A stretch of 64,000 bases of DNA from contig JBNGBT010000002.1 of the NCBI GenBank assembly GCA_049903315.1, positions 192,001 to 256,000 of the forward strand, read 5' to 3'. Of the stretch, positions 1,605 through 61,552 are shown in pieces (positions within the stretch are counted from its first letter, which is position 1; each line of letters begins with the position of its first letter). Source of the stretch: Candidatus Cloacimonadota bacterium (GTDB taxonomy: Bacteria; Cloacimonadota; Cloacimonadia; JGIOTU-2). The translations under genes were made by a program, and so were the position numbers. The notes under the pieces are model-generated. The model was not told the DNA's origin. It worked only from the letters and a program-made list of their open reading frames with translations, and did not search any database.

Positions 1605-1811
1605 ATGCAAGATAAATGGGTATGCCCAAAATGTAAAAACAATCAATATGAAACCGACCAGTTCCAGGCAACCGGCGGTACTTTTACAAAACTGTTCAAC
1701 GTCCAATCCAAAAAATTCACAACAGTCACCTGCACACGCTGCAAATATACTGAAATCTATAAAGCTCCCACCAGTTCTTTGATTAATATCTTCGATTTCT
1801 TTACTAATTAG
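1605..1811 (+). CDS. Small zinc-ribbon nucleic-acid-binding protein
   Basis: CPKC...CTRCKYTEIY; AAGGAG RBS. Confidence 0.85.
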   Translation: MQDKWVCPKCKNNQYETDQFQATGGTFTKLFNVQSKKFTTVTCTRCKYTEIYKAPTSSLINIFDFFTN

Positions 1812-1840
1812 AATTTCTACGATTCACAACCTTCATTATA

Positions 1841-1898
1841 GTTCAGGATAAACCTGAACCTACAAAAAAAATATGTGTAGCGACTGTTTATTCCGTCG
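1841..1898. repeat. Pair of divergent GTAG-type REP-like hairpins
   Basis: Minus strand GTAG-gttcagg-tttat-cctgaac (1841-1863); plus strand GTAG-cgactg-tttatt-ccgtcg (1877-1898). Confidence 0.55.
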
Positions 1899-2236
1899 AT
1901 TGATTTAAGAATGAAGATTAAAGATAGATGATTTAAGATTTGTATAACGCGTTCAAGTGGGAGAAGTTACCTCTATATTCTTTAATAGCAGGAAGATTAA
2001 AATTTATAAATGATTATATCTTTGCGTTCTCTGCGTCTTTGCGATCTTTGCGAGAAAATATTTAGTGTGAAGAGATAGGTTCATCCCATTGATTGATTTA
2101 AGAATGAAGATTAACGATTGAAGATTTGAGATTTGTATAACACAATAACCGGAGAAGTTAACTCAATACATTTTAATAGTTCACAACAGAAATATACAAT
2201 TTCTTATATCTCTGTGAACTCTGTGCGCTCTGTGGT
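1898..2236. repeat. Imperfect tandem duplication (period about 193 bp) built from a 7-mer array and a 9-mer array
   Basis: gattgatttaagaatgaagatta at 1898 and 2091; ggagaagtta..ttaatag in both units; 9-mer arrays at 2020-2053 and 2210-2236. Confidence 0.85.
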
Positions 2237-2248
2237 GTAACATTTAAA

Positions 2249-3142
2249 TTAGAATTTCTCCGTTTCCTGTAAAATTCCAAATTGTAATCCATAATCACTC
2301 GCAAAGATGTCCTTGATTCCAAGATATAAAAAAATGCTCTCGAGAAGTATCGTACCCGATAATAATACATCAGAGCGATGCGGATCAAAGGGAATGAGCA
2401 TTTCTATTTCTTCATAAGATAATTTTTTCCACAAATCCCTAAAATAATGTACATCATCCAAAGTAAGAACCTGTTTGTGCACTTTTTCCGAAATCCATGT
2501 TTTCAATCCCTGTTTTACTGCAACGAGATTCGTGACAGTGCCGCCTATGCCAACAACTTTATATGAAGATGGCACATGTTCCTTGATGTTTGAATGAGAT
2601 AAAACATCCTTACATAAAGAATACTTATCTTCATCAGATTCGAAAAGATTATTCAGTCTTCGGACTCCCATTTTTAAGCTGACTGAATAGGTTATTTCGC
2701 TGTCTTCAACGATAATAAATTCAGTGCTACCACCACCGATATCAAAGATGATAAGATTTTTATACTCTTCAAATTCACACTTGTTTGCAAGGTAGTCATA
2801 ATACAATTCCTGTTCCTCAGAAAGAACATGATAGGGAAGTCCGTACTGCTTTTTCAACCAATGAGAAATTACAGAAATATTTTTTGCCTCTCTCGATGCT
2901 GATGTGCCGGTAATAATTATCCTATCTGCTGAATACTTACGAGAAACCTGGATATATTTATCGAGAATTGTTTTTGCTCTTTCAATCCCTTCCTCAGTCA
3001 ATAGTCCGTTTTTCATGCCTTTGCCAAGTGAAGAGGTTTGTGCATCGCGATGAAGAACGTGCCATGAGTTGTTTGATCTTTCAGCAACAAGTAGTAAAAT
3101 TGAATTCGTGCCTACATCAATGACCGCGCAGATGGCTTTCAT
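2249..3142 (-). CDS. ppx: Ppx/GppA family exopolyphosphatase
   Basis: IDVGTNS, TSASREAKN, FDIGGGSTE, GIGGT motifs; start set at MKAICAV. Confidence 0.9.
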   Translation of the reverse strand: MKAICAVIDVGTNSILLLVAERSNNSWHVLHRDAQTSSLGKGMKNGLLTEEGIERAKTILDKYIQVSRKYSADRIIITGTSASREAKNISVISHWLKKQYGLPYHVLSEEQELYYDYLANKCEFEEYKNLIIFDIGGGSTEFIIVEDSEITYSVSLKMGVRRLNNLFESDEDKYSLCKDVLSHSNIKEHVPSSYKVVGIGGTVTNLVAVKQGLKTWISEKVHKQVLTLDDVHYFRDLWKKLSYEEIEMLIPFDPHRSDVLLSGTILLESIFLYLGIKDIFASDYGLQFGILQETEKF

Positions 3143-3149
3143 ACAAGCA

Positions 3150-4205
3150 TTATAAAATCGATCGAATTTCCTTGAGAAGCTCAGCAATGATGTGCTTTTC
3201 AGGGATTTTTCTGATGATCTTTCCTTTCTTGAAAAGAACTGCCTGCCCTTTTCCTCCGGCAATGCCGATATCTGCTTCTTCAGCTTCTCCTGGTCCATTC
3301 ACGATGCATCCCATGACAGCGATGGAAATATTTTTCTCGATCTGCAATTTCTGAACTTCATCCTCAACTTTTCGTGCAATACCGATGATATCAATCTCTG
3401 TTCTTCCACAGGTGGGGCATACAATGAGGTGTGGACCCTTCCTGAGGTCGAGTGCCCGAAGTATCTCCAAACCGACTTTTACTTCCTCGACAGGATCATC
3501 TGCAAGCGATACACGCAGCGTATCGCCGATTCCTTCTGCAAGGAGTGTTCCGATGCCAATCGAGGACCGGATGGTGCCTGAGAACGCTGTACCGGCTTCT
3601 GTGACACCTAAATGCAAAGGAAAGTCACATTTCTCGCTGATCTTCCTGTAGGATTCGATCGTAAGCGGAACGGATGATGCTTTCAACGAGAGTTTTATGT
3701 TGTAAAAATTCTGAGATTCAAAAAAGCGTACATGACGCATAGCACTTTCCACAAGCGCATCCGCAGTGACGCCGTATTTCTTTTTTATATCCTTTTCAAG
3801 CGATCCTGCATTCACCCCGATGCGAATTGGAATATGAGCAATCTTTGCAGCCTCGATAATATATTTTACTTTATCATTACTTCCGATATTTCCGGGATTT
3901 ATGCGTATGCCATGCACACCTTTTTCAATTGCATGAATTGCCAGCTCATGATTGAAATGAATATCTCCGATAACAGGAATAGGGGATCCATCCAAAATTT
4001 TTGGCAGTGCATCCACAGCTTTCATGTCCGGTATTGCGACACGTATTATATCACATCCGTGAGCTGCACATTGCCTGATCTGTTCGAGTGTTTTCTCAGC
4101 ATCCCGGGTGTCCGTATTGGTCATGGACTGTACGGAAATGGGAGCATCACCACCGATTTTTACGTTACCAACTGCGATCTGCCGGGTTTTCTTCCTTGGG
4201 ATCAT
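3150..4205 (-). CDS. ispG: (E)-4-hydroxy-3-methylbut-2-enyl-diphosphate synthase
   Basis: ISVQSMTNT, RINPGNIG, LHLGVTEAG, CPTCGR, VMGCIVNGPGEA. Confidence 0.98.
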   Translation of the reverse strand: MIPRKKTRQIAVGNVKIGGDAPISVQSMTNTDTRDAEKTLEQIRQCAAHGCDIIRVAIPDMKAVDALPKILDGSPIPVIGDIHFNHELAIHAIEKGVHGIRINPGNIGSNDKVKYIIEAAKIAHIPIRIGVNAGSLEKDIKKKYGVTADALVESAMRHVRFFESQNFYNIKLSLKASSVPLTIESYRKISEKCDFPLHLGVTEAGTAFSGTIRSSIGIGTLLAEGIGDTLRVSLADDPVEEVKVGLEILRALDLRKGPHLIVCPTCGRTEIDIIGIARKVEDEVQKLQIEKNISIAVMGCIVNGPGEAEEADIGIAGGKGQAVLFKKGKIIRKIPEKHIIAELLKEIRSIL

Positions 4206-4663
4206 AAATGCTTTTTCTCGAAGTCCAATAATTTTTGTTTCACATCGATACCACCGCCAAAACCTCCCAGCCCTTTATCCGTGCGTATCACACGATGGCA
4301 GGGAATCACAATAGGAATGGGATTCACATGATTAGCGTTACCGACTGCTCTGGATGATCTTGGGTGACCTATTCCTAGCGCGACATCGTGATAGGTTTGT
4401 GTTTTTCCATAGGGAATCTGCTGAAGATATTCCCAGACTTTAATCTGAAAAGGAGTACCCACAAGCACGAGGGGCAGATCAAAGGTTTTTCTCTTTCCAG
4501 AAAAATATTCTTCAAGCTGTTTCAGATACTTATTATCTTTTGAAAGCTCGAAGATCACATCCTTATCCTTGCAGTCGAACTGAATAGTGTGCAATCCTTC
4601 ATCAGAAAAGGTAAGTAGGATGTTCACGATATTGTTTTTTAGAATGCTTTGATATAATTTCAT
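4202..4663 (-). CDS. ogt: Methylated-DNA-[protein]-cysteine S-methyltransferase
   Basis: GTPFQ..VW, RAVG.A...NP.PIVIPCHRV active site. Confidence 0.93.
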   Translation of the reverse strand: MKLYQSILKNNIVNILLTFSDEGLHTIQFDCKDKDVIFELSKDNKYLKQLEEYFSGKRKTFDLPLVLVGTPFQIKVWEYLQQIPYGKTQTYHDVALGIGHPRSSRAVGNANHVNPIPIVIPCHRVIRTDKGLGGFGGGIDVKQKLLDFEKKHL

Positions 4664-4715
4664 AAATTTATGTAGACTGAACAAGCCAGCTTATTGTCAA
4701 TAATTTCTTATTTTA

Positions 4716-5951: not shown

Positions 5952-6008
5952 TTTATTTTTACTGAAAAAAATATGTTAAAAATAAATAATGGATTGCTTA
6001 ATAAATTA

Positions 6009-6560: not shown

Positions 6561-6591
6561 GAGAAGAGCTGTTGCCAACGATATATCTTTT

Positions 6592-6801
6592 TTACCAGGA
6601 CACAAGTCCGTAGAGCAATGCAGCAATACCTACCACAAAATACACGATTACATTAATCCAGAAGAGTGTTGGCTTCTCTTCTTTTGCTATGTTAAAGTCG
6701 CCCTTGATTCTTACCTTACCTTTGGTGATACCTTTGTACCCGAACCAGATAAGAGCAAAACCGATGATAGAAATCAGTAATTTAACAATACCATGGTTCA
6801 T
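6592..6801 (-). CDS. Small two-TM membrane protein
   Basis: Two hydrophobic helices; GGAG RBS. Confidence 0.65.
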   Translation of the reverse strand: MNHGIVKLLISIIGFALIWFGYKGITKGKVRIKGDFNIAKEEKPTLFWINVIVYFVVGIAALLYGLVSW

Positions 6802-12158: not shown

Positions 12159-13286
12159 ATGAAAAAAAGAAAGGCAAGAAACTACGGTATTTTTACCATA
12201 TTTCTTATTGCATTTCTCTTCATCACTTCTCTTGCTATAGCTGGTCCGGGATCAAAAATACCTGCAAAAGCAAAAAACACAACCGAAAAGAAGGTCGCAG
12301 AAAATGTCACTGACAAGAAAGAGAAAGTAGAAACAACGCCTACCAAACAGAAGAATAAGACAACTGACGATGAAAAAGAGAAATCTGCCGTAAAAAAGAA
12401 GGTCGAAGTCATAACTGTTCCCAATAAGAAAAAAAGCGAAGATAAAACTCCGAATATTCAGATCGAGAAGACTAAAGTTGAACCTTCTTATGAAAAGAAA
12501 AATACAACTAGTTCAGATAAGATCTATGATAATCAACAATATCATCAGAATGCTGATAAGGATGTTTCTTCAAAGAATGATTTGATCATACATTCAAAAT
12601 CCTCAATCGATAAGAATACTGGTACTGATAGTGATATGATTGAGAACTATATCAAAGAAAAATCACACGGGATCCCTTCGAATTACATTTCTCCAAGGCA
12701 GATTCTCGAGCCTGAGGAGATTGAACACAACAATGATGTCCAGATCATAATCTACAATAATATTGAATATCGATGGTATTACGGATATTATTACGAGCCC
12801 TGGAATGGCTGCTATAGAAGAACATGGCCTTGTTTTGGATGGCGGATAAGCTGGCTCCCGCCATACTATTATACCTTCTGGTGGCGTGACATCGAGTATT
12901 ATTACTGTTGCAATGTCTATTATATATATTATGAAGATGAAGAAGAATATGTGGTTGTTCGTCCTCCGATTGGAGCGCTTGTCGAAACAATACCGGATTA
13001 CAGCGAGAAGCTCATCGTTGAAGGAGAAACGTACTTCATTGCTGATGGTATCCAATATAAAGCGGTTATAGTAAACGATGAAATTTGGTTCAAGGTCTTG
13101 AAATTCACTGAGAAAAACGAATATGCTGTCATTGAGCTGCCTGTTGGTTCACTCGTTGAGATTATACCTGGTGAGCGAGACTTGCTGTTTATTGATGGAG
13201 AAACCTACTACATTGCTGATAATGTCCAATATAAAGCAGTGATTGTGAATGACGAAATTTGGTTCAAGGTATTAAAAGTCGGATAG
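12159..13286 (+). CDS. Secreted protein with Lys-rich linker, Tyr/Trp-rich region and duplicated DUF6515-like C-terminal module
   Basis: Two copies of P.G.LVE.IP...GETY.IAD..QYKAVIVNDEIWFKVLK. Confidence 0.75.
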   Translation: MKKRKARNYGIFTIFLIAFLFITSLAIAGPGSKIPAKAKNTTEKKVAENVTDKKEKVETTPTKQKNKTTDDEKEKSAVKKKVEVITVPNKKKSEDKTPNIQIEKTKVEPSYEKKNTTSSDKIYDNQQYHQNADKDVSSKNDLIIHSKSSIDKNTGTDSDMIENYIKEKSHGIPSNYISPRQILEPEEIEHNNDVQIIIYNNIEYRWYYGYYYEPWNGCYRRTWPCFGWRISWLPPYYYTFWWRDIEYYYCCNVYYIYYEDEEEYVVVRPPIGALVETIPDYSEKLIVEGETYFIADGIQYKAVIVNDEIWFKVLKFTEKNEYAVIELPVGSLVEIIPGERDLLFIDGETYYIADNVQYKAVIVNDEIWFKVLKVG

Positions 13287-19051: not shown

Positions 19052-19746
19052 GAATAGCACGCAGATCCACGCAGATCGAGCAGATTTTCGCTGAAAAATT
19101 TTTCTTTTATATTTTTTAAGCATTTTTTTTATGTAGTATGATTCTACTTGATTTTATTTGAAAATATTTTTCTTCTTACTTCAGGTTTTTTCCCAAAGTT
19201 AAGAATGAGTCCAATTTCGTATTTTGTTGCCTTAAGATAGTTAATTATTTGAGTATCATCTTCTGGACTAAGAAATTTGTTAGCTTTTAATTCTATTAAA
19301 ATTTTATCTTCTACAACCAGATCTGCAAAATAGTCTCCAACCAACTTGTCCCGATAATATACTTTTATTGGTTTCTGTGATTCAACAGAGAAACCTTTTA
19401 ATTCCAATTCAAACTTGAGTGATTTTTCATATACTTTCTCTAAAAAGCCATATCCAAGTAGATTATACACTTTGAAGAAACAGTGAATAATATCATCTGT
19501 TAAATCAGAAAATTTATATTTCATCTATTTCATCCTTAGCATGTTTTTTATTTTCTTTATCAGCGCTTATCAGTATAATCAGTGTTCATCAGTGTCCCAT
19601 TCTTTTTAATAGAAATCAGTTCCACGAAGATTAAGCAGATTCCCCTGATGGCGTATACAGATAAATATTTTATAATAAATTTTATTTATCATTTATTATT
19701 TTTTTAGTGTTCATCAGTTTGACCAGCGTTCATCTGCGTTCCATTC
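19052..19746. mobile_element. Putative GxxExxY element: nuclease-fold gene bracketed by imperfect inverted arrays, plus an adjacent empty module
   Basis: Arms 19052-19094 and 19560-19602; empty module 19608-19746; lies between umuD and umuC. Confidence 0.6.
19144..19524 (-). CDS. GxxExxY protein (PDDEXK_3-like)
   Basis: LGYGFLEKVYE, AD..VE.KI.IELK, Q..NYLKAT...GL.LNFG. Confidence 0.93.
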   Translation of the reverse strand: MKYKFSDLTDDIIHCFFKVYNLLGYGFLEKVYEKSLKFELELKGFSVESQKPIKVYYRDKLVGDYFADLVVEDKILIELKANKFLSPEDDTQIINYLKATKYEIGLILNFGKKPEVRRKIFSNKIK

Positions 19747-20217
19747 TTATATCGGTTTGTGTATAACATAAGTAACCACGCCCCAGATGTGGAAATCCAT
19801 GTCATCAGTGATCTCGAGAGGTTTGAAATTGATATTGCTGGACTGCAGATAGAGTTTATCGTTTTGATGCCAGATCCTCTTCACGGTGAGTTCGCCATTC
19901 ACTGCTGCGATCACTATTTTTTGCTTTTCTGCTTGAACTGATCTGTCAACAATGAGTAAATCTCCGGAATGTATTGCAGCATCGATCATAGAATCACCTT
20001 CCACCCGGACAAAAAAAGTTGCTGCAGGATGCTTGATAAGGAATTTGTTCAAATCAAGTGTGGATTCGATATAGTCGCTTGCTGGAGAAGGGAATCCGGC
20101 TGTGATCTCCGATTTGTACATAGGAAGTTCGAGTTCTATGCCCTCTTCATAACTCATGATCTTCGCGATACCCTTTCCTCGTTTCAAGGGACGGATATTA
20201 TTATCTTTTTGCTTCAT
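19747..20217 (-). CDS. umuD: DNA polymerase V subunit UmuD (S24 autopeptidase)
   Basis: AGFPSPA cleavage site, RVEGDSM, GELTVKR; start uncertain. Confidence 0.93.
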   Translation of the reverse strand: MKQKDNNIRPLKRGKGIAKIMSYEEGIELELPMYKSEITAGFPSPASDYIESTLDLNKFLIKHPAATFFVRVEGDSMIDAAIHSGDLLIVDRSVQAEKQKIVIAAVNGELTVKRIWHQNDKLYLQSSNINFKPLEITDDMDFHIWGVVTYVIHKPI

Positions 20218-20881
20218 ATTTACACGCTCTTGCTCCAAATAATTTTGTGCCAATCCGTATGATATTCGCACCTTCTTCGATGGCAATTTTATAGGAATTG
20301 CTCATACCCATAGAAAGAAATTTCATTTCAATATTCGGAATGTCCAGCTTTGCAATATGATCGAAAATCTTCCGTGTTTCCACAAAATAGGAACGCGCAT
20401 CTTCAGGATCGCCGGTAAAAGGTCCCATAGTCATGAGTCCCATTATCTTTACGTGAGGAAGCAGTGCAATTTCTCTTATAAGTTGTTCAACATCTTCCGG
20501 CATCACGCCATTCTTCTGCGGTTCACGTCCGCTGTTTACCTCAATGAGGATAGACATAATTTTATTATTGAGCTCAGCATATTTATCAATTTTTCGTGCA
20601 AGTTTGAGGGTATCAACTGTCTCGATCATATCAAAAATTGGCACAACCTGTACAACTTTGTTACTTTGTAGATGTCCGATGAAATGCCACCGTGCTTTAT
20701 CACCAATTATTTCATGAACAGCAACTGCTTCCTGTACATAATTTTCACCAATTTTATTTATGCCTGCTTCTATTGCTTCAAGGATTTCCTCAGCAGTTCT
20801 CGTCTTGGCAGCAGCAACCAACTCGATGCCTTCAGGAATTTCGGAAAGTAAACGTTTAACATTCTCTGTTATTAAACTCAT
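20201..20881 (-). CDS. yggS: PLP homeostasis protein YggS
   Basis: GENYVQE, WHFIGHLQSNK, LSMGMS, RIGT.LFG. Confidence 0.96.
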   Translation of the reverse strand: MSLITENVKRLLSEIPEGIELVAAAKTRTAEEILEAIEAGINKIGENYVQEAVAVHEIIGDKARWHFIGHLQSNKVVQVVPIFDMIETVDTLKLARKIDKYAELNNKIMSILIEVNSGREPQKNGVMPEDVEQLIREIALLPHVKIMGLMTMGPFTGDPEDARSYFVETRKIFDHIAKLDIPNIEMKFLSMGMSNSYKIAIEEGANIIRIGTKLFGARACKYEAKR

Positions 20882-20900: not shown

Positions 20901-20966
20901 TCACACATTATGAACAACATTCATCTTGATGAACATTCCTTTGTCAACTCCTATCTCATTACATTG
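20901..20966 (-). repeat. Diverged orphan copy of the 3' end of gene 21895-22119
   Basis: Encodes NEIGVDKGMFIKMNVVHNV* versus NEIGVDKGRYIKMNVVQNV*; 54/60 nt identical. Confidence 0.92.
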
Positions 20967-21027
20967 AATATCCAATATCCAGCAAGGAATGTTCAATGAT
21001 GAAGTATTTTTCAGGAAAATTACTTAA

Positions 21028-21076
21028 AAATCATCAATCTGAAATCAATAATCTTAAATCATAAATCTCCAATCTT
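21028..21076. repeat. Degenerate 7-mer tandem array (xAATCxx, 7 units)
   Basis: aaatcat caatctg aaatcaa taatctt aaatcat aaatctc caatctt. Confidence 0.8.
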
Positions 21077-21181: not shown

Positions 21182-21841
21182 TCAAAAAACTATTGATAAT
21201 TGTATATTACATATAAACATTTTTATTCCAAAATCAGCCGAAATACGAAAAAAAGAATTTTTACTGATTTTAAAGCTGTATCCTCCACCAACTGTAACAT
21301 TTGGTAAGAAACCCACATATGCTAAAGAAGCCACATAATCACACCCGAGATTTACCGTAGTATAATAGCCTTTTCTATCTAAGTTTTTAAAATTGTTTAT
21401 AGCTATTGATATTCCAGTAATACCGACAGCTCTAAGTGCATTAGCGTGTAAAACTATTATATTCTCTTTAATATAACTGCAACTGTCGCTTGTGATCCAA
21501 CCATAGCCAAGATATATTCCGGGAATCAAACCGGGTGACAGACTGGCAATATAGCAACCTTTCGAGGAACGAATTTTTTCTCCTAAAGACCTAGGTTTTT
21601 CATTATGTGTAATATTATTTTCATCATCTAGAACATTTTCAGATTCATTGTTCAATGAGTAAAGATACAAATGATTATTGCTTGATTTATTAGTAAGCAG
21701 CTTGTTATATTCAAGATCAATAATATAAGCATTTCCAAAGTTATTATTTGAATCTGTCACTGTTGTGATAAGATTTGCTTCAACAAATACTACTAAGAAC
21801 ACAATTAAACCTACGATAATACCCATCAGTTTTTTAAACAT
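21182..21841 (-). CDS. AT-rich exported hypothetical protein, possible outer-membrane protein
   Basis: N-terminal hydrophobic segment, C-terminal Phe; visibly lower GC than neighbours. Confidence 0.7.
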   Translation of the reverse strand: MFKKLMGIIVGLIVFLVVFVEANLITTVTDSNNNFGNAYIIDLEYNKLLTNKSSNNHLYLYSLNNESENVLDDENNITHNEKPRSLGEKIRSSKGCYIASLSPGLIPGIYLGYGWITSDSCSYIKENIIVLHANALRAVGITGISIAINNFKNLDRKGYYTTVNLGCDYVASLAYVGFLPNVTVGGGYSFKISKNSFFRISADFGIKMFICNIQLSIVF

Positions 21842-21894: not shown

Positions 21895-22119
21895 TCATAC
21901 ATTTTGAACAACATTCATCTTAATATACCTTCCTTTGTCAACTCCTATCTCATTTCCACATTGGCAGAGCACTTTATTGTTATTATAAATAGCGTCGTCT
22001 TCAATAATCCGCTTCTTATGGCAGCGTAGAATATGTCCTCGTCCTACTTTTTCATATTTGAATATTTTACTCTTGCATTTGTCGCACCTGATAATAATGA
22101 TGCGGGAACGGTCTGCCAT
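21895..22119 (-). CDS. Small Cys-containing (zinc-ribbon-like) hypothetical protein
   Basis: CDKC...C...CQCG; starts 1 nt after the helicase stop codon. Confidence 0.75.
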   Translation of the reverse strand: MADRSRIIIIRCDKCKSKIFKYEKVGRGHILRCHKKRIIEDDAIYNNNKVLCQCGNEIGVDKGRYIKMNVVQNV

Positions 22120-32176: not shown

Positions 32177-32536
32177 ATGGAAAATGCAATTACTTATTTG
32201 AATGCAAATCCGATTTTGTGGGTAATTCTTGGTATTTTAGCTGTTTTATTAATTGTTGCAATTATTAAAAAGATGTTCAAATTACTTATTGTACTGGTTG
32301 TGATCGCACTGGTATATTTAGGTTATTTATTCTTCACAGGTAAGGAAATTCCCATGAATAAAGAGGGCTGGATCGAGCATGGTAAGGAGTTGATTGAAAA
32401 AGGAAAAGATGCCGGTAAAGACCTGCTTGATAAGGGAAAAGAAGCAGGAAAAGATCTGCTAGAAAAAGGGAAAGACGCAGGTGAGGATTTGATAGAGAAA
32501 GGTAAGGAGGAATTGAAGAAGAAAACAGATGGTTAG
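32177..32536 (+). CDS. Small membrane protein with 11-residue amphipathic repeats
   Basis: Two TM helices, then four GKD/ELLEKGKE/DA-type repeats. Confidence 0.75.
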   Translation: MENAITYLNANPILWVILGILAVLLIVAIIKKMFKLLIVLVVIALVYLGYLFFTGKEIPMNKEGWIEHGKELIEKGKDAGKDLLDKGKEAGKDLLEKGKDAGEDLIEKGKEELKKKTDG

Positions 32537-43723: not shown

Positions 43724-43982
43724 TGAACTCTGTAATCAGGGACCAGTTCAAATAATTTACATTGGGATCTTATGTTACTTCTTCTTAAAAAAAATTTCAA
43801 TAACCAAACAATATATTTCTTGACGTTAATTTTATTTCCATAACCAAAAGAAAATTAATATAGTTATTCCTCTATATTTGAACTTGTTGTTGTACTTATT
43901 GCTTCAACTCATGTTTGATTAAGAATGTGTGCGGTCTGACAATCCGCCTGTATTGTATCACGAAATGAAAAGGACCAGAGAA

Positions 43983-44193
43983 ATGTTTAAGAAATTGAAA
44001 ATAGTATCGGGAATGATGATGGTTATATTGTTCCTATTAAGCACAAACCTGTTCGCACAAAACTATAGTGGAGGATCCGGGACTGAGGAAGATCCATATT
44101 ACATTACAAGCAAGACAAATCTAAAATATCTCTCTGAAAAATCAGGTAAATGGCAAAACAGCAGAGACGAAAAAACTCATTTTAATGAGATAA
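43983..44193 (+). pseudogene. Internally deleted secreted CTD protein gene
   Basis: Signal peptide and YSGGSGTEEDPY joined out of frame to VNGKTAETKKLILMR* (44146-44193), the same C-terminus as gene 44363-46303. Confidence 0.85.
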
Positions 44194-44362
44194 AAAAACA
44201 CGACTCAGTCTGCAAGAATGAGTCGGGGTGAAAAGAATATTTATCACGAGTCGTTCCCTGCGTGACCGACTCGTGATTCAAATATAGAAGTTTAATATAG
44301 TGTATTTAATGCTCAACGTGTTAACTTTCTGATTAATTTAAAAAAATGTGAAAGGAAAAAGA

Positions 44363-46303
44363 ATGAAAAAAATGAATTTAGTGTTTATCTTATTATTTAC
44401 AATAGTTTTGATGACTGGCACGAAGCTGGCAGCACAAACAACGTTATATGTTGATGCTTCTGCTAGCGGAAGTAACAACGGCACAAACTGGACTAATGCC
44501 TACACTTCTTTTCAGTCAGCTCTTGATGGAGCCGTTTCCGGCGATCAAATTTGGGTAGCTAAAGGAACATACAATCCAAGTTATGATTATGGTTTGGGAG
44601 GTGGTTCACGTTATTACCATTTCCGCATGATAAATGGTGTGGCAATCTACGGTGGCTTTACGGGGACAGAAAGTGCTGTGAGCGAGAGAACAAATTACGG
44701 TTTTGGTGAAGCAAACGAAACCATACTGAGCGGGGACATCGGGGCGATTGGTGATAATACCGACAACTGCTACCACGTTATTTATCATCCTTCTTTCTCT
44801 ACTAACCTTACTGCCATTCTAGACGGCTTTACCATTACAGATGGGAATGCGGATGATGGCAATGATCCGCACAAAAGCGGTGGTGGAATGCATAATGATC
44901 GTTCTTCTCCGACTCTTACCAATTGTACTTTCACATCGAATTCAGCTAAATACGGAGGTGGACTGTATAATTTTAATCAAAATTCTCCTTCACTTACGAA
45001 TTGCACCTTCATATTGAATTCGGCTGTTTATGACGGCGGTGGAATGCTTAATAAACAATTGTCCACTCCGGCCATTACCAATTGTACTTTCACATCGAAT
45101 TCAGCTAGATACGGAGGTGGACTGTATAATAATTCTTCTTCTCCTTATGTTACGAATTGCGCCTTCACCTCGAATTCAGTTTCTTGGTGGGGCGGTGGAA
45201 TGTTTAATAATTCTTCTTCTCCAACAGTTACCAATTGCACCTTCACATCGAATTCGGCTGATGAGTCCGGAGGTGGGATATTTAATTATTTTGCTGCTTC
45301 TTCACCGACCCTTAATAATTGCATTGTTTGGGGAAATGATGCTCCAGATGGTGATGAAATTTATAATAATCAGGGAACAATCACGCTGAATTACTCCTGT
45401 TATGCAAATGACACGGGTGATGTTTACGGTACACCAGTAGTTTCGCACTGCATCACCTCCGATCCCTGTTTCGTGGGCGTCGAAAATAATCCAGACCATC
45501 CTTACAGCATAGGCGGTATTTCGCCTTGTTGTGATACCGGAAATGACAGCTATAATTCTGAAGAATATGATATAAGGGGAGAAGGATATCCAAGGAAACT
45601 AAATAAGAGCACTGGTGGTTCTGGAACGATCGATATGGGCGCTTATGAATATAAAATAGGGACTGATCCAACACTTCCTGTCACCCTTTCCGCCTTCACC
45701 GCAGAATTCATCAATAATACCTCAACCCTTTACTGGGAAACCCAATCTGAGGTAGACAATCTTGGTTGGAATCTTTACAGAAATGTTGTGCAGGAATTCT
45801 CTAACTCGGAACAGATCACTCATGAAATGATACCCGGTAACGGCACGATCACAGAGCCAAGTTACTATAATTTTGAAGATACAGCCGATCTTGAGATTGG
45901 ACACACCTATTATTACTGGCTGGAAAGCATAGACTACAGCGGGATCTCACAAGTGTACAGCAGGGTAGCTCAGATCACGATTCCTGATCCTTCTGTGAAT
46001 CCCCAGAATATCGAGCCGCCAATAGTGTATGATTTCAAAAATATACCAAATCCGATAAGCGGTAATGCACAATTCCAGTTCACCTTTGATAAATCAAGCA
46101 TGGTTTCGGTCTCGATTTATAATATTCTTGGTGAATTAGTTCAAACTCTCCCGCAAGTAATGACACAGCCGGATGAAACTGCTCATATATACTGGAATGG
46201 CAAAAACAGTAATGGAAAAGAACTCACACCTGGTGTCTATTTCTACAACCTCATTGTGAATGGAAAAACAGCAGAAACAAAGAAACTCATTTTAATGAGA
46301 TAA
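44363..46303 (+). CDS. Secreted beta-helix protein (choice-of-anchor Q/PMP-like) with T9SS-A/FlgD-like CTD
   Basis: YVDASA.G.NNGT.W..AY; repeated TNCTF.SNSA..GGG; IDMGAYE; LPV.L..F; GVYFY. Confidence 0.88.
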   Translation: MKKMNLVFILLFTIVLMTGTKLAAQTTLYVDASASGSNNGTNWTNAYTSFQSALDGAVSGDQIWVAKGTYNPSYDYGLGGGSRYYHFRMINGVAIYGGFTGTESAVSERTNYGFGEANETILSGDIGAIGDNTDNCYHVIYHPSFSTNLTAILDGFTITDGNADDGNDPHKSGGGMHNDRSSPTLTNCTFTSNSAKYGGGLYNFNQNSPSLTNCTFILNSAVYDGGGMLNKQLSTPAITNCTFTSNSARYGGGLYNNSSSPYVTNCAFTSNSVSWWGGGMFNNSSSPTVTNCTFTSNSADESGGGIFNYFAASSPTLNNCIVWGNDAPDGDEIYNNQGTITLNYSCYANDTGDVYGTPVVSHCITSDPCFVGVENNPDHPYSIGGISPCCDTGNDSYNSEEYDIRGEGYPRKLNKSTGGSGTIDMGAYEYKIGTDPTLPVTLSAFTAEFINNTSTLYWETQSEVDNLGWNLYRNVVQEFSNSEQITHEMIPGNGTITEPSYYNFEDTADLEIGHTYYYWLESIDYSGISQVYSRVAQITIPDPSVNPQNIEPPIVYDFKNIPNPISGNAQFQFTFDKSSMVSVSIYNILGELVQTLPQVMTQPDETAHIYWNGKNSNGKELTPGVYFYNLIVNGKTAETKKLILMR

Positions 46304-46466
46304 CAGATTGTTCATTACCAAGCTGGGGCTTGGTAATGAGGAAAGAACTCACACCCGGTGTCTATTTCTACAACCTCATTGTGAATGGGACAACAGCAGA
46401 AACGAAGAAACTCATTTTAATGAGATAACGGATTGTTCATTACCAAGCTGGGGTTTGGTAATGAGG
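46217..46466 (+). repeat. 125-bp tandem duplication of the gene 3' end plus REP hairpin
   Basis: Units 46217-46341 and 46342-46466, about 6 substitutions. Confidence 0.95.
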
Positions 46467-46788: not shown

Positions 46789-47295
46789 ATGAAAAAAAGT
46801 AAGAAATCAAAAATGAAAACATTTTATCAGAATGTATTTATTATCTTCGTGATTTGTATTTTCGGTTGCCAACAGCCCCGACAAAAATCTATAGAAAAGG
46901 AGAATGAAATGATTAAAACAGAAGTCAAAGAGCAATTCAATCAACTAATTTCTGCATTAAACAATTTGGATTCAAATGCATGGTCCGGATTTTATAGCAA
47001 AGATGAGTTTGTGTCATCATTTGTCAGTACAGATTTTTACTCGAATCGAGGTGAATTCATAGAGGCAATAAAACATTATTTTGCACTGAGAGAGCATCAG
47101 CAGGTTGAACCACTCGAAGTACAAGTTACAGAGCTATCTCCAACTGTGGCTCTATTAACGAGTCAAGAAAAGACGGAAATGCGATTGAAAAATGGTGAAA
47201 AATTCAAATCCAAACATGTTTTTACAATGATCTGGAAAAAAGAGCATGACGGATGGAAGATTATACATTCTCATGAATCATGGATTGCTGAGTAG
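46789..47295 (+). CDS. NTF2/SnoaL-like (DUF4440-type) lipoprotein
   Basis: IFGC lipobox; C-terminal T.IWKK..DGWKIIHSHES. Confidence 0.82.
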   Translation: MKKSKKSKMKTFYQNVFIIFVICIFGCQQPRQKSIEKENEMIKTEVKEQFNQLISALNNLDSNAWSGFYSKDEFVSSFVSTDFYSNRGEFIEAIKHYFALREHQQVEPLEVQVTELSPTVALLTSQEKTEMRLKNGEKFKSKHVFTMIWKKEHDGWKIIHSHESWIAE

Positions 47296-47479
47296 TATAA
47301 ATAAATAAATTCCTTAAGTTCACTTTTCCTATTACCAAAAAAGGAGTATTCCTTTAGCTTCATATGATGAGTAGATAAAAACGAATTTTATCATTATTTA
47401 TCAGTCTATCTTTTATAATAAAGGTTTGAAAAACACATCGGTTTGATAAAAAGTATCTAGTTGAGAATGTTTGAAATGT

Positions 47480-47579
47480 AGAAACTCATGTTAATGAGAT
47501 AAAAGATTGTTCTTTACCAAGCTGGGGCTTGGTAATGAGAATACATTTTCGTTGTAGGGGCTGAACATGTTCAGCCCTT
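47480..47579 (+). repeat. 100-bp direct repeat of 46406-46505 (gene end plus two REPs)
   Basis: Colinear at offset 1074 with few substitutions. Confidence 0.92.
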
Positions 47580-47600
47580 TTTTTATTATAGAATATCCAA

Positions 47601-53950: not shown

Positions 53951-54529
53951 ATGAAAGTTCTCATTATATATGCTCATCCATATGAAGGAAGTTTCAATAA
54001 AGCTATTTTGGATAATACTATTGATGGCTTGAAACATGCAGGTCATGAGTATGAACTTATTGATCTCAATGCAGAGGGATTCAACCCGGTTCTCACTTGC
54101 GAAGAGCTAGCGAAGTATCCAGAGGGTGAGTATTTTGATCCGAAGGTAGGGGAATATCTCGCAAAAATTAAAAATGCTGAACACCTTGTTTTGATCTTTC
54201 CCATTTGGTGGGGTGATGCACCTGCTATCCTTAAGGGATTCTTTGATAAAGTATTATTAAAAAAACATACCTATGATTTTAAAGGTAACTGGCCGCAGGG
54301 TAAACTAAAAGGAAGATCCGCAACAGTTATCTCAACAATGAACAGTCCTAAAATATTCTATAATTTCATAGGCAAAGCACCAATAAAACACACTGTGATA
54401 AGCGGCACACTAAAATTATGCGGTATAAAACCGGTGAAGTGGATAGAGTTCTCGCAAGTTGTTTCTGCTTCAAATGAGAAACGAGAAAGGATGCTCGATA
54501 GGGTATTGGATTATTTTACGAATTTGTAA
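53951..54529 (+). CDS. NAD(P)H:quinone oxidoreductase (flavodoxin-2 family)
   Basis: AHP...SFN, FPIWW..APA.LKGFFD. Confidence 0.92.
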   Translation: MKVLIIYAHPYEGSFNKAILDNTIDGLKHAGHEYELIDLNAEGFNPVLTCEELAKYPEGEYFDPKVGEYLAKIKNAEHLVLIFPIWWGDAPAILKGFFDKVLLKKHTYDFKGNWPQGKLKGRSATVISTMNSPKIFYNFIGKAPIKHTVISGTLKLCGIKPVKWIEFSQVVSASNEKRERMLDRVLDYFTNL

Positions 54530-54576
54530 ATATTAAAATACTATTAAATAAATTAAGAAAGGAGAGGTGATATATT

Positions 54577-54692
54577 ATGGAGTAAATCGACTTTGTCGAT
54601 TTAACATTGACGCAGTCAATGTAGTCCACGAATAAAAATATGGAGTGAATCAACTATGTCGATTTTTGCATTGACACAGTCAATGCACTCCA
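54577..54692 (+). repeat. Two Y-shaped REP-like repeats upstream of the RAYT gene
   Basis: 54577-54628 and 54640-54692: atggagt-aaatcgacNNNgtcgattt-cattgacNNNgtcaatg-a(g/c)tcca. Confidence 0.92.
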
Positions 54693-54706
54693 AAAAGAGT
54701 ATTAAA

Positions 54707-55252
54707 ATGGAAGAAACCTACAAAAAGTATCAACATAATCCACCGCATGTGTATGTCCCGAACGTAAAGTATTTTGTTACATCCTCTACGTTAGGAAAAT
54801 ATCATTATTTGCAATCTGAAGAAGCTAAATGGGCTGCACTTCATTATCTTACAAAATCATTGGATCTTTTTAATTGGGAATTAGAAGATTGGGTGATCTT
54901 AGATAATCATATTCATATAATGATAAATGCACCAGAAGATTCTACTACATTATCTCAATTGTTCAATAATTTTCATCGATTTACTGCAAACTGGTTATCA
55001 AAACACAATATAAAAAAAGTGCAAGAGAAATATTTTCATAATTATTGGGATACGTGCATAACGTATGAGAAGTCATATTTTTGTAGACTTCATTATATTT
55101 GGTATAATCCTGTTAAGCATGGCTACGTAGAAAGTCCTGAGAAATGGAAGTTTGGTAGTTATTATTTCCGATATAAAGAAGATATGAGGGAGATGGAACA
55201 AATAATTAAAACATATCCAATTGATAGAATGAAAATAGATGATGAATTTTAA
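54707..55252 (+). CDS. REP-associated tyrosine transposase (RAYT; IS200/Y1 HUH family)
   Basis: PPH, YFVT, HUH motif NHIH, YIWYNPVKHG, W..GSY; start set at MEETY. Confidence 0.9.
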   Translation: MEETYKKYQHNPPHVYVPNVKYFVTSSTLGKYHYLQSEEAKWAALHYLTKSLDLFNWELEDWVILDNHIHIMINAPEDSTTLSQLFNNFHRFTANWLSKHNIKKVQEKYFHNYWDTCITYEKSYFCRLHYIWYNPVKHGYVESPEKWKFGSYYFRYKEDMREMEQIIKTYPIDRMKIDDEF

Positions 55253-55263
55253 ATATGGAAATT

Positions 55264-55379
55264 ATGGAGTAAATCGACTGGATTGATTTAACATTGACTC
55301 AGTCAATGCAGTCCAAAGAAGACGTATATGGAGTAAATCGACTGTGTCGATTTAGCATTGACATAGTCAATGCAGTCCA
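55264..55379 (+). repeat. Two Y-shaped REP-like repeats downstream of the RAYT gene
   Basis: 55264-55315 and 55328-55379, same orientation and consensus as the upstream pair. Confidence 0.92.
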
Positions 55380-55430
55380 AAACGGGAAAGGATGCTCGAT
55401 AGAATTTTGATTATTTTACGAACTTGTAAA
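55380..55430 (+). repeat. Diverged orphan copy of the 3' end of the oxidoreductase gene (54479-54530)
   Basis: 46/52 identity (5 substitutions, 1 gap). Confidence 0.92.
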
Positions 55431-55647: not shown

Positions 55648-55670
55648 AATAAGAATTGAAAGGAAATAAT

Positions 55671-58299: not shown

Positions 58300-58306
58300 G
58301 GAGTAT

Positions 58307-59548: not shown

Positions 59549-59560
59549 ATAGGAGTAATC

Positions 59561-60307
59561 ATGAAAAAAGTAATCATATTCATAATCCTGTTTGGATGTT
59601 TCTCTTTTCTTTATGGACAGAATTTAATTCTCACAGGACTTGGAATTCTTCAGAAGATAGATGAGAATGAATTTTATAAAACTATAGAATATACAGGATT
59701 GATGACTATTCATATCGATGACGAGATAAGAACCAAGAGAATGACCACACAAGCAAAGACTGAAGGTCAAAAAGCACTGGTTGAATTTACAAATCCTGAA
59801 GATTACGGCACGAAGTATCTGATGATGGAAGATGAGCTTTGGATATATTTTCCGAGTGAAGAAGAGATTGTAAAAATCTCAGGGCATATGCTCAAAGAGG
59901 GGATGATGGGCAGCGATTTTTCCTATGAAGATGCACTGGAAGCAAGCAAGATAGCTGAAAAATATGAGGTTCAAATTGCCGAACAAGATACTTTAAATGG
60001 GCATGTGTGCTGGGTACTGACACTCAATGCGAAAGTGAAAGATGTACCGTATTACTCCAGAAAAATGTGGGTTGATCAGGATCTTTTTATTCCATGGAAG
60101 GAAGAGATGTATGCTAAATCAGGTCGTTTACTCAAAGAAATGAATGTGCTTGAGGTTAAGCAGTTTGGGAATCGCTACTTCCCTGTCAAATCAGAGATGG
60201 TGAACAAGCTGAGAAAAAACAGTAAAACAGTTTTTGAACTTGAAGATATTGCATTTGATGTCGATCTGCCAGACAATATGTTCAGCTTAAGATATTTACA
60301 ACATTAA
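59561..60307 (+). CDS. LolA-like outer-membrane lipoprotein-sorting protein
   Basis: F..P...GT.YL, LWIY.PS, MGSDFSYED. Confidence 0.85.
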   Translation: MKKVIIFIILFGCFSFLYGQNLILTGLGILQKIDENEFYKTIEYTGLMTIHIDDEIRTKRMTTQAKTEGQKALVEFTNPEDYGTKYLMMEDELWIYFPSEEEIVKISGHMLKEGMMGSDFSYEDALEASKIAEKYEVQIAEQDTLNGHVCWVLTLNAKVKDVPYYSRKMWVDQDLFIPWKEEMYAKSGRLLKEMNVLEVKQFGNRYFPVKSEMVNKLRKNSKTVFELEDIAFDVDLPDNMFSLRYLQH

Positions 60308-60313
60308 GAAACC

Positions 60314-61411
60314 ATGAAAAAAAAAATGATAGTAGTTTTCTTATTATTGCTCATTACAGCAGGACTTATTGCTGATACACAATCCGGTTTGAAGATCTGG
60401 GGCTCAAATTTTATCGATCTCAGCGGGTACCATTATCTGAATAATGAAAACGATTCGCTCAAAATTGGTGCAATGAATACATTTCGATTAAACTTCCAAA
60501 ATAGAAATAAGCGTTATGCAAAGATTGTAGGCAATTTAGATTTGATCATTCCCTTGGGCTATACTGCAGATCAATTTCACGATTTGATCGATGCATCGGA
60601 TTCACTCTCATTGCCATATTATCCACTTTTTGTATATGGCAATACTCCGGTTATGCTGGACATCAGAAAATTGTATCTCTCTGTTTATTTGCCCTTTGCA
60701 GACATCACACTGGGGAGGCAGATCATAAACTATGGTAAGGGAGTCGTTTTTTCACCGATCGATGTATTCTCAACAGTAGATGTAACGAATATTAATTTTG
60801 AACGGCATGGCAGTGATGTAGCTGCAATCAAAATTCCTCTCTCATATCTTTCGGGTCTTGACATCATGACTGAACTTCCCAGGAAAAATCATGAATATTC
60901 GACGGCGATTCGAGGATATTTCAACGCAATGGGATTTGATTTCGCACTCAATACAATTTATAAGCATAGAGCTGAGAAATTGATTGCAGGTTTATCCTTT
61001 AAAGGTGACGCCTTCTTCGGTGTGTATGGTGAACTTGTGGAACACTTTGCGAACGATTATTCGGATAAATATTTTGAAGGAATGCTTGGGCTCGATTATT
61101 CGATTCACAACCTTTATCTCTTCAGGTGTGAATATTATTACAAAAACAGCAATATCCAGAATGAGTGGGGGAAACAGAATCTTTTTCTTTCCTTTCAATA
61201 TGTCATAAACGATCTTATGAACGTATCTGCACATATGATTGGAAGTGATGTTGGTGGGGATGCGCAAACCTTTATATATATGGGTCAGTTCTACTACAAT
61301 ATTCTCCAGAATGTTGATCTTATAACCTATGCTCGGTATTTTTCGTATAAAGAAAATTTGATTACTTTGCCCGATATAGAATATGCAGTAAGAGTGGAAG
61401 TTAAGTTTTAA
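60314..61411 (+). CDS. Putative outer-membrane beta-barrel protein
   Basis: Signal peptide, LGRQ.I..G.G..FSP.D, C-terminal Phe. Confidence 0.75.
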   Translation: MKKKMIVVFLLLLITAGLIADTQSGLKIWGSNFIDLSGYHYLNNENDSLKIGAMNTFRLNFQNRNKRYAKIVGNLDLIIPLGYTADQFHDLIDASDSLSLPYYPLFVYGNTPVMLDIRKLYLSVYLPFADITLGRQIINYGKGVVFSPIDVFSTVDVTNINFERHGSDVAAIKIPLSYLSGLDIMTELPRKNHEYSTAIRGYFNAMGFDFALNTIYKHRAEKLIAGLSFKGDAFFGVYGELVEHFANDYSDKYFEGMLGLDYSIHNLYLFRCEYYYKNSNIQNEWGKQNLFLSFQYVINDLMNVSAHMIGSDVGGDAQTFIYMGQFYYNILQNVDLITYARYFSYKENLITLPDIEYAVRVEVKF

Positions 61412-61552
61412 GAGTACGTAGAGAAGAATTTAACCACGAAATACACGAAAAGAACAAATAAAATTAAGGGTGGAGTTAAGTAACGCAAGATTCCAATTTA
61501 TCAATGCGTAACCACTATTTGGTGGAGAGGACTGATCTTACGTATTTATAAG

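What the first reader, a model, noticed from the sequence alone, without database searches (positions are those of the whole stretch)
1806..61481. Recurring insertion signature: cargo placed right after a gene and closed by a diverged copy of that gene's 3' end
Seen in sequence: the same architecture at independent loci. (a) ppx end 2247-2266 / 1806-1825, 18/20, about 420 bp of repeats between. (b) 21895-21954 / 20901-20960, 54/60, cargo gene plus 7-mer array. (c) Oxidoreductase 54479-54530 / 55380-55430, 46/52, RAYT plus REPs. (d) The KKLILMR* ends at 44-48 kb. (e) Weaker: 61389-61406 / 61465-61481. The orphan copy is always downstream in the gene's own polarity and runs up to or across the stop codon, and REP-like or short-period repeats lie in the insert. 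In (b), (c) and (d) many differences are synonymous or conservative (cga/cgg, agg/aga, aat/aac, gta/gtg, att/atc, V/I, Y/F). Established: transposon target duplications are usually short and initially exact; att duplications need a recombinase, and none is seen here. Inference: an integrase-independent route in which incoming DNA carrying a homologous gene end plus cargo replaces the resident end and leaves the old end behind, possibly with repeat-directed nicking by RAYT or GxxExxY proteins at the other junction. I do not know of a described system with this exact signature.
Basis: partly seen in the sequence, partly recalled or inferred. Interest (0 to 1): 0.85.

Follow-up and report, generated by a model that had tools for sequence, protein, structure and literature searches.

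The report
Gene-end scars of one-sided recombination
At several places in this marine bacterium's genome, new DNA arrived together with a relative's version of the neighbouring gene's end and pushed the old gene end aside as a short leftover, a scar known from toxin loci and laboratory crosses and seen here at ordinary genes.

Summary
The architecture is real. 13 of 2,426 gene ends recur in downstream non-coding DNA, against 0.6 in permutations; 9 survive curation and 5 are single-copy genes with an unrelated insert. Window cases b and c are solid. Case d mixes a tandem duplication with paralogue remnants, a is ambiguous, and e is within noise.

Relatives hold empty alleles. At two loci the working copy and the orphan each continue into a different lineage's flank. 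Differences are codon-structured: 30 of 45 fall at third positions. So the incoming end replaced the resident one.

Two claims fail. Mirror scars (orphan 5′ starts upstream, e.g. ileS 239/252) exist. RAYT, GxxExxY and four-helix elements do not routinely leave this scar (0/17, 0/30, 0/34 tests).

Best reading: one-anchor additive recombination, either homology-facilitated illegitimate recombination or single crossover of a circle. It is proposed for rhs and T6SS loci and shown for the lacZ end in E. coli. Repeat ends are over-represented at the joints (3 of 10, against 1.8–7.1%), so a nick-assisted variant stays open. New variant of a known kind.

The parts
21895..22119 (-). (b) 74-aa CxxC zinc-ribbon-like gene (no Pfam hit); its last 60 nt (21895-21954) are the working end
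   Evidence: directly upstream of yggS in G003, G005, G006, G008, G010
21182..21841 (-). (b) cargo gene, 219 aa, no family; also inserted here in G007 and G001 (68-69% identity)
20964..21074 (-). (b) 7-mer array plus multi-copy repeat of the kind that flanks four-helix-bundle genes; it ends at the joint
   Evidence: coverage of 9 or more copies up to about 3 nt before the joint
20901..20966 (-). (b) orphan gene end, 54/60 plus CAATGT across a 3-nt gap; contiguous with the native spacer and RBS of yggS; holds TTGACA, TTCAT-N4-ATGAA and CATAAT; only 2/57 differences from the G007 orphan
20201..20881 (-). yggS, first gene of the yggS-umuD-(GxxExxY)-umuC-like-SRAP run downstream of orphan b
   Evidence: umuC named from its sequence, not from a family call
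53951..54529 (+). (c) flavodoxin-fold NAD(P)H oxidoreductase; 54479-54530 is the working end
54530..54573 (+). (c) 45-nt spacer with RBS, homologous to the spacer that precedes a different gene in G004 and G005
54574..54695 (+). (c) two REP units (about 55 nt, double hairpin)
   Evidence: families D11, D14, D17
54707..55252 (+). (c) REP-associated tyrosine transposase (NF047646, 85.4 bits, cut-off 80); absent from the same REP array in G006
55261..55382 (+). (c) two REP units; the last ends in GTCCAAAA, the letters that G004 and G005 alleles of the gene carry at the joint position
55380..55430 (+). (c) orphan gene end, 46/52, with a 1-nt deletion; a shorter version (about 20 nt) is in G006
44348..46303 (+). 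(d) T9SS-type-tail protein ending KKLILMR*
46217..46466 (+). (d1) 125-nt tandem copies of gene end plus REP, 120/126; joint at GTAATG, shared by the REP end and the gene
46789..47295 (+). (d2) cargo: SnoaL/DUF4440 lipoprotein-like gene
47473..47580 (+). (d2) orphan end (26/30) followed by the same two REPs as after the gene
43929..44231 (+). (d0) collapsed paralogue: a 5' start fused to a KKLILMR* end (44146-44193); not the signature
2247..2266 (-). (a) ppx 3' end
1826..2246 (-). (a) spacer of 9-mer and 7-mer arrays, largely shared with G004
1806..1825 (-). (a) 18/20 match to the ppx end, overlapping the stop of the convergent DUF2082 gene; ambiguous
1605..1811 (+). DUF2082 zinc-ribbon gene (PF09855), convergent with ppx
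61389..61481 (+). (e) gene end, 9-mer array, 16/17 match with one gap; within noise

Best explanation
These are scars of one-anchor additive recombination between related strains or species. Donor DNA carries part of gene A plus whatever lies next to A in the donor (cargo gene, REP/RAYT, short-period repeats). It recombines homologously inside A, so A now ends with the donor's end and flank. Its far end is joined illegitimately, often at a 5-8 nt microhomology, to the recipient chromosome 20-90 nt before A's old stop. The old end, its spacer and the next gene's signals stay downstream. Equivalent form: the donor piece first closes into a circle at that microhomology and then integrates by one crossover. 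If the anchor lies in the gene downstream of the cargo, the mirror scar results (an orphan 5' start upstream). SHOWN: excess over controls, empty alleles, two-lineage flanks, codon-structured divergence, mirror class, no neighbouring integrase. INFERRED: RecA use, uptake by transformation, linear versus circular intermediate, and that orphans are short because long repeats loop out and because joints that keep the downstream RBS or promoter survive.
For: Excess: 13 of 2,426 ends score 30 or more, against permutation mean 0.6 (max 2), antisense 2 and mid-gene 2 (10 of 2,192 vs 1.0). Empty alleles: b in 5 of the 9 same-genus genomes where the site was read; C44:252553 in G002, G007 and G009; ileS in G002. 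Two-lineage flanks: at C44:252553 the working copy runs on into G002-type spacer, while the orphan aligns to G009 continuously for 1,090 columns into the next gene and keeps the GAG ATG TGA stop read in G004, G007 and G009. At ileS the working copy has G004-type upstream DNA and the orphan follows the upstream gene as in G002. At C44:112154 the orphan continues into the spacer of the empty G003 allele. Codon structure in 8 pairs: 30 of 45 differences at third positions, 24 synonymous vs 17 non-synonymous codons, P=7e-4 against my rough 0.33 expectation for an exact copy that drifted. An arbitrary donor end: at C11:219865 a sigma54 response regulator is cut inside its AAA domain (profile 2-119 of 168) and runs in frame into the orphan, with no repeat near. 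Microhomologies are visible at b, c and d1. comEC and dprA are present (weak, they ring in 10 and 11 of 14 controls). Literature: PMC3240628 section 12 (56 of 60 clones gave the duplication PCR product; 14 sequenced held 109-950 bp lacZ-end duplications, read as single crossover of a circle), PMC2935791, PMC5361080.
Against: No excess in 359 kb from five relatives (1 vs 0.9 of 303 ends; about 1.6 expected at this genome's rate, so low power). Sliding identity along the genes shows no clear donor tract. One locus (C11) gives 10 of the 24 synonymous codons; without it 14 vs 12, P=0.02 against 0.33. At b, four genomes have orphans starting within about 5 nt of each other, and G000 and G007 each share one codon between their own two copies. 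That points to one old event, selection and later gene conversion, so some empty alleles may be loop-out products rather than ancestors. 4 of the 9 curated hits are tandem or paralogue remnants that need no foreign DNA. Joints sit at repeat ends more often than a blind joint predicts. In E. coli conjugation true HFIR was 10^6-fold rarer than homologous recombination, and 3 of 4 joints had no homology (PMC3240628).
Confidence: 0.6

Rival explanations
1. Element-assisted version. A RAYT (HUH) or GxxExxY nuclease nicks at the end of its repeat. The freed end, or an excised ssDNA circle carrying flanking gene sequence, is joined at a microhomology in the gene end, and homology in the gene completes integration. 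The element sets the non-homologous joint.
For: 3 of 10 joints lie within 5 nt of the end of a repeat with 3 or more copies (b, d1, e), and c sits at the end of a low-copy REP. Background is 1.8% of non-coding positions, or 7.1% near repeats. The REP end GTCCAAAA equals the G004/G005 allele at the joint. The mirror case C24:2958 has a hairpin repeat right after the orphan start. TnpA-REP cleaves up- and downstream of REPs and was proposed to capture flanking genes or fragments (PMC3333891, passages).
Against: 0 of 17 testable other RAYT rows, including an 87%-identical protein with the same REP at another site. 0 true of 30 GxxExxY and 0 of 34 four-helix 3'-end tests; 0 of 27 and 0 of 23 5'-start tests. 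Joints at C11, C44:252553, d2 and a have no multi-copy repeat within 200 nt upstream, and the ileS joint shows none by eye. One of the three counted joints (e) is itself within noise. Hairpins could favour illegitimate joints passively, or later repeat insertions could have trimmed the orphans.
Confidence: 0.15
2. Within-genome events. An exact short tandem or target duplication (slippage at microhomology, or collapse of a paralogue array) later drifted. The gene copy collected synonymous changes, and cargo entered between the copies afterwards.
For: It fits d1 (125-nt tandem with a GTAATG joint), d0, and the GxxExxY, four-helix and histidine-kinase remnants among the 13 hits. Orphan c resembles the G003 and G006 gene ends more than its own partner does at several positions, as an ancestral copy would. 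10-18% of variable segments in three species are flanked by short direct repeats (PMC2884548, passages).
Against: A neutral orphan should add position-blind changes, yet 30 of 45 are at third positions (P=0.003 against my rough 0.45). It does not explain two-lineage flanks or the truncated cargo fused to the orphan at C11.
Confidence: 0.17
3. Remnants of integrase-made att sites. Islands that restore a gene's 3' or 5' end with a diverged copy later lost the integrase and most of the cargo.
For: The geometry is the same as attL/attR at protein-coding targets (recalled; dusA-associated islands seen in the listing). Both polarities are known for such islands (recalled).
Against: Inserts are 0.1-1.7 kb at many unrelated targets. 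No tyrosine recombinase lies on the window's contig or beside the curated loci, and none was seen in the relatives' inserts read. Serine recombinases were not searched.
Confidence: 0.05
4. Assembly chimera of co-occurring strains.
For: The genome is metagenome-assembled, and only short-read contigs are available; contigs break at the d1 repeat.
Against: b, c and C44:112154 are shared with other species' genomes. c is spanned by one contig without differing letters in 4 of 4 runs, e in 3 of 4. The d1 junction piece has near single-copy depth in the 3 runs where it is listed.
Confidence: 0.02

Closest known systems
Homology-facilitated illegitimate recombination (HFIR) and single crossover of a re-circularised donor (PMC3240628; original transformation papers seen only as references in PMC2884548 and PMC5361080)
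   Same: One homologous anchor, one illegitimate joint, no recombinase. The circle form gave 109-950 bp duplications of the lacZ end flanking the insert.
   Different: Laboratory HFIR is scored as deletion of recipient DNA. Here the joint falls inside the anchor gene and leaves a diverged 20-250 nt leftover. The copies come from diverged alleles, and the events are old and natural.
rhs C-terminal displacement (PMC2935791) and T6SS effector-immunity displacement in Vibrio (PMC5361080)
   Same: An incoming 3' end replaces the resident end, which is shunted downstream as an orphan. A circle or HFIR model is proposed and no integrase is seen.
   Different: There the swapped end is a variable toxin tip under diversifying selection and arrays build up. 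Here the ends are near-synonymous versions of ordinary genes (flavodoxin-fold oxidoreductase, ATP-grasp, DUF2007, ileS start), the payload is an unrelated neighbour, and mirror 5' scars occur.
REPtron / RAYT-REP units (NF047646; PMC3333891, PMC2817692)
   Same: Locus c holds an HUH Y1 transposase between REP hairpin arrays. An array without the gene exists in G006, like the precise tnpA-REP loss described in E. coli.
   Different: The RAYT here is cargo inside a scar, and its relatives at other sites have no gene-end copy. These RAYTs occupy many different sites within one family of genomes.
Integrase-driven islands that restore a protein-coding target (attL/attR)
   Same: Diverged direct repeat of a gene end or start around cargo.
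   Different: No integrase, many targets, very small inserts.

Membership tests
HFIR / one-anchor additive recombination | Homologous anchor from a different allele on one side of the foreign DNA | tested here: met
   Two-lineage flanks at C44:252553 and ileS; third-position bias. The donor tract itself was not resolved.
HFIR / one-anchor additive recombination | Illegitimate joint with little or no homology at the other side | tested here: met
   5-8 nt shared letters at b, c and d1, read by eye; cargo cut mid-domain at C11
HFIR / one-anchor additive recombination | Works with the anchor on either side (both polarities) | tested here: met
   Mirror scars at ileS, C22:65261, C24:2958 and C44:13704
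HFIR / one-anchor additive recombination | RecA dependence and a linear incoming molecule (versus a circle) | not testable with these tools
   Uncultured lineage; comEC and dprA are present
rhs/T6SS-type polymorphic C-terminal displacement | Old 3' end shunted downstream as an orphan | tested here: met
rhs/T6SS-type polymorphic C-terminal displacement | Exchanged tip is a non-homologous toxin domain with an immunity gene, in arrays | tested here: not met
   Ends are homologous and mostly synonymous; cargo families are unrelated to toxins where a family was found
RAYT/REP (REPtron) for 54574-55382 | Y1 HUH transposase above the RAYT cut-off | tested here: met
   NF047646, 85.4 bits vs cut-off 80
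RAYT/REP (REPtron) for 54574-55382 | Flanked on both sides by REP hairpin arrays | tested here: met
RAYT-, GxxExxY- or four-helix-made long target duplication | Other insertions of the element carry the same flanking gene-end copy | tested here: not met
   0 of 17, 0 true of 30, 0 of 34
Integrase att remnants | Recombinase gene in or beside the insert | tested here: not met
   PF00589 has 6 matches, none on C22 or beside curated loci; serine recombinases not tested
Diversity-generating retroelement (VR/TR) | Reverse transcriptase present and differences confined to template adenines | tested here: not met
   No PF00078 match (genome 96% complete); differences involve all bases

The most novel reading that the evidence does not exclude
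In this repeat-rich lineage the many mobile RAYT/REP, GxxExxY and four-helix repeat elements supply the non-homologous joint by nicking or hairpin-directed joining at their repeat ends. Any gene end or start then becomes a landing pad for neighbours from related species: a general, integrase-free, one-anchor gene-addition route whose joint is set by the repeat rather than by chance.
Probability: 0.15. Interest if true: 0.75.

Novelty: new variant of a known kind. Interest (0 to 1): 0.42.

Why it matters
HFIR and circle integration are known from laboratory crosses and were inferred for toxin loci, but natural footprints at ordinary genes are rarely pointed out. A diverged 20-250 nt copy of a gene end or start around small cargo gives a countable, polarised scar: it marks which copy came in, which lineage was resident, and where the joint lies. 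A simple genome scan can therefore measure how much small-gene and REP/RAYT acquisition runs through one-anchor recombination, and whether repeat ends direct the joint. It is not a new molecular system on present evidence.

Tried and rejected
1. First scan against all downstream DNA: swamped by tandem paralogues (end-down 27 vs end-up 24 at score 18 or more); replaced by masked non-coding targets with permutation.
2. Four of the 13 hits were dropped on inspection: C66:92410 (a REP forms the gene end), C55:188997 (start of the next paralogous regulator), C11:53440 (A-rich paralogue end) and C21:530 (repeat array). C11:131130 was also dropped (REP).
3. The codon table had b one base out of frame and included d0; both were corrected.
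4. Element-made duplication was tested on RAYT, GxxExxY and four-helix loci and not found. 5 of 22 RAYT rows were untestable; two tested rows are the same sequence (16 distinct); only 30 of 42 GxxExxY and 30 of 69 four-helix matches were fetched, 4 and 3 of them from this genome. The two GxxExxY scores above 30 were 9-mer arrays read as ORFs.
5. Donor tract by sliding identity at uvrD-Zn gene and C44:252553: no clear switch.
6. Promoter in orphan b: the consensus scan does not list it, the genome shows no sharp -10 spacing after TTGACA, and TTCAT-N4-ATGAA occurs at only 2 non-coding sites. Left as a hint. recA and lexA were not found with my motif search, so no SOS box was tested.
7. Replication in relatives' DNA: no excess, low power.
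8. C11:219865 has no comparable allele in relatives (1 of 20 genomes, different C-terminus).
9. No empty-allele joint was listed in four laid runs (contigs drop rare variants). No RNA holder was listed.
10. DGR and RNA-templated routes: no reverse transcriptase found.
11. Literature searches found no paper describing this scar genome-wide at ordinary genes or in this lineage. The library lacks most subscription papers, and no supplements were read.
Full report
SETTING. The window is G000:C22:192001-256000 of a 2.96-Mb, 71-contig assembly. Runs that hold it are mostly seawater or marine metagenomes. It encodes many T9SS-type-tail proteins, and the closest named relative of its RAYT (87%) lies in a record titled Candidatus Cloacimonadota. 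I therefore treat it as Cloacimonadota-like. Ten same-genus and ten same-family genomes were available by handle.

OBSERVATION. All five matches are in the sequence. b is 54/60 and c is 46/52 with a 1-nt deletion in the orphan. d is three things: a 125-nt tandem copy of gene end plus REP (120/126); an end plus two REPs repeated after a DUF4440 gene; and a collapsed paralogue upstream. a overlaps the stop of a convergent DUF2082 gene and scores in the ambiguous zone (26; 16 observed vs 7 permuted). Its motif is also in G003 and G004, where it does not match their ppx ends. e is within noise and was not seen in relatives.

GENOME-WIDE TEST. I aligned the last 40 nt of each called gene to the non-coding part of the next 3 kb. 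With small ORFs included, 13 of 2,426 score 30 or more, against a permutation mean of 0.6 (max 2 in 10 rounds), 2 for the antisense target and 2 for mid-gene queries (10 of 2,192 vs 1.0). Four hits are false on inspection. Four are tandem or paralogue remnants (d1, a GxxExxY copy, a four-helix copy, a histidine-kinase end). Five are single-copy genes with an unrelated insert: b, c, C44:112154, C44:252553 and C11:219865. The signal is real but modest, a few per megabase. In 359 kb from five relatives there was no excess (1 vs 0.9 of 303), where about 1.6 was expected, so that test is uninformative rather than supportive.

NOT AN ARTEFACT. b is shared with G007, c with G006 (REP array and a shorter orphan, no RAYT) and C44:112154 with G004. 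Single contigs span c without differing letters in 4 of 4 runs from four studies, and e in 3 of 4. The d1 junction piece has roughly single-copy depth in the 3 runs where it is listed.

WHICH COPY IS OLD. At b the zinc-ribbon gene abuts yggS in G003, G005, G006, G008 and G010. In G000, G007 and G001 (same cargo) and G009 (two other genes) an insert intervenes, and an orphan end runs on into that genome's own spacer and yggS start. At C44:252553 (ATP-grasp gene, rsgA cargo on the other strand, then tauE) G002, G007 and G009 are empty. The working copy continues into G002-type spacer. The orphan aligns to G009 continuously into tauE and keeps the stop seen in G004, G007 and G009, which the working copy has lost by a 2-nt deletion. 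G003 carries rsgA between the same genes without an orphan, and its match to G000 ends just past the TTGACA upstream of rsgA, about 12 nt before the orphan. At C11:219865 a sigma54 response regulator stops inside its AAA domain and runs in frame into an 80-nt orphan with 10 synonymous differences. Across 8 pairs, 30 of 45 differences are at third positions, and 24 codons are synonymous against 17 not. That is P=7e-8 against neutral 0.2 and 7e-4 against my rough 0.33 for an exact copy that drifted; without C11 it is 14 vs 12, P=0.02. The two copies mostly diverged while both were coding, as alleles of different lineages would.

POLARITY. Starts duplicated upstream are also in excess (16 vs 4.6, inflated by imprecise start calls). 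Clear cases: ileS, where 252 nt of promoter, leader and start (239 identical) enclose a 380-aa cargo not found within 1.5 kb upstream in 9 of 9 relatives, with G002 showing the empty order and G004 the working copy's upstream repeat; C22:65261; C24:2958; and C44:13704. An anchor on either side predicts this. A 3'-specific system does not.

ROLE OF THE ELEMENTS. The window's RAYT passes NF047646. None of 17 testable other RAYT rows (16 distinct; 22 fetched) has a copy of the upstream gene end, including an 87%-identical protein with the same REP after another gene. GxxExxY gave 0 true of 30 and four-helix 0 of 34 3'-end tests, and 0 of 27 and 0 of 23 start tests. So these elements do not make the scar as a rule. 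Yet 3 of 10 joints lie within 5 nt of a multi-copy repeat end (b, d1, e), c lies at a low-copy REP end, and the background is 1.8%, or 7.1% near repeats. At c the REP's last letters GTCCAAAA are exactly what G004 and G005 alleles carry at the joint; b shows CAATGT or TTCAT, and d1 GTAATG. Four joints have no multi-copy repeat within 200 nt upstream. Repeat ends are favoured, not required; nicking, passive hairpin effects and later trimming are not separated. No tyrosine recombinase lies beside the loci and no reverse transcriptase was found.

WHY ORPHAN b LASTS. The G000 and G007 orphans differ at 2 of 57 positions while their yggS genes are 80% identical. All four orphans keep TTGACA, TTCAT-N4-ATGAA and CATAAT, and the last two have decayed in the G000 and G007 working copies. 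I infer a cis-element for the yggS-umuD-umuC-SRAP run; the promoter scan did not confirm it. This also means b may be one old event with later loop-out and conversion, so its empty alleles need not all be ancestral.

MECHANISM. Most likely (0.6): one-anchor additive recombination. Homologous exchange occurs inside the gene, and an illegitimate joint forms shortly before the old stop, or a circle closed at that joint integrates by one crossover. Rivals are within-genome duplication and drift (0.17, enough for d and the paralogue remnants), element-nicked joints (0.15), att remnants (0.05) and artefact (0.02). RecA use, uptake route and the reason for short orphans are inferred.

COMPARISON. PMC3240628 (passages and section 12 read): in E. 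coli conjugation 56 of 60 clones gave the duplication PCR product, and 14 sequenced ones held 109-950 bp lacZ-end duplications, read as single crossover of a shortened circle; 4 were true HFIR. PMC2935791 (passages): rhs tips displaced downstream through a circular intermediate. PMC5361080 (passages): HFIR proposed for T6SS modules that shift old 3' ends back. PMC3333891 (passages): TnpA-REP cuts on both sides of REPs and may capture flanking fragments. PMC2884548 (passages): homology-assisted illegitimate recombination proposed for dimorphic loci. PMC2817692, PMC3784515 and the dusA paper were seen as listings only. The original transformation papers were seen only as references. No supplements were read. 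My searches found no genome-wide description of this scar at ordinary genes.

VERDICT. A real and well-spotted pattern, with the right core idea but an overstated uniformity. It is a new variant of a known kind. Interest 0.42; the repeat-directed version would deserve 0.75 at probability 0.15.

Noticed in passing
window 19144-19524 and 19053-19748: GxxExxY gene with 9-mer repeat flanks sits between umuD and the umuC-like gene; 42 matches in 9 of 11 genus genomes at many different sites, so it behaves as a mobile unit of unknown mechanism.
   Followed up: partly
G000 and genus: Four-helix-bundle (TIGR02436) genes, 3-16 per genome, are flanked by short-period arrays (often 6-7-mers) in inverted arrangement; several are broken or tandemly decayed.
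   Followed up: partly
L080-L102: RAYTs of this subfamily occupy many unrelated sites right after gene ends, up to 3 matches per genome, with GGAG(T)...ACTCCA-bounded REPs in direct orientation; they look more mobile than the single-copy RAYTs described in the PMC5581495 abstract.
   Followed up: partly
window 20901-20960: Gene end doubling as a conserved cis-element (TTGACA, TTCAT-N4-ATGAA, CATAAT) upstream of yggS-umuD-umuC-SRAP; possible operator or promoter.
   Followed up: partly
L216:1330-1530 and 2930-3125 (G000:C7, ileS leader): A roughly 180-nt ileS leader is highly conserved in all 10 genus genomes read and ends in a GC hairpin plus U-run; it may be an attenuator or riboswitch-like leader. 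Not searched against Rfam.
   Followed up: no
L074:2769-3277 (G006): The oxidoreductase of locus c is frameshifted in G006.
   Followed up: no
window 1605-1811: Small DUF2082 zinc-ribbon gene between rplQ and ppx, present in most same-genus loci read and absent from the g3 and g6 loci; the ppx-DUF2082 spacer is an insertion hot spot (GxxExxY in G007, different repeats in others).
   Followed up: partly
window 12940-13280 and 32391-32502: Coding internal repeats: a 174-nt two-copy domain repeat and a 33-nt repeat.
   Followed up: no
G000:C11:60896-116304: Long tandem array of about 800-aa paralogous genes with similar starts and ends.
   Followed up: no
L151:17321-17700 (G001): Near-identical local duplication of more than 110 nt at a 260-nt offset.
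   Followed up: no
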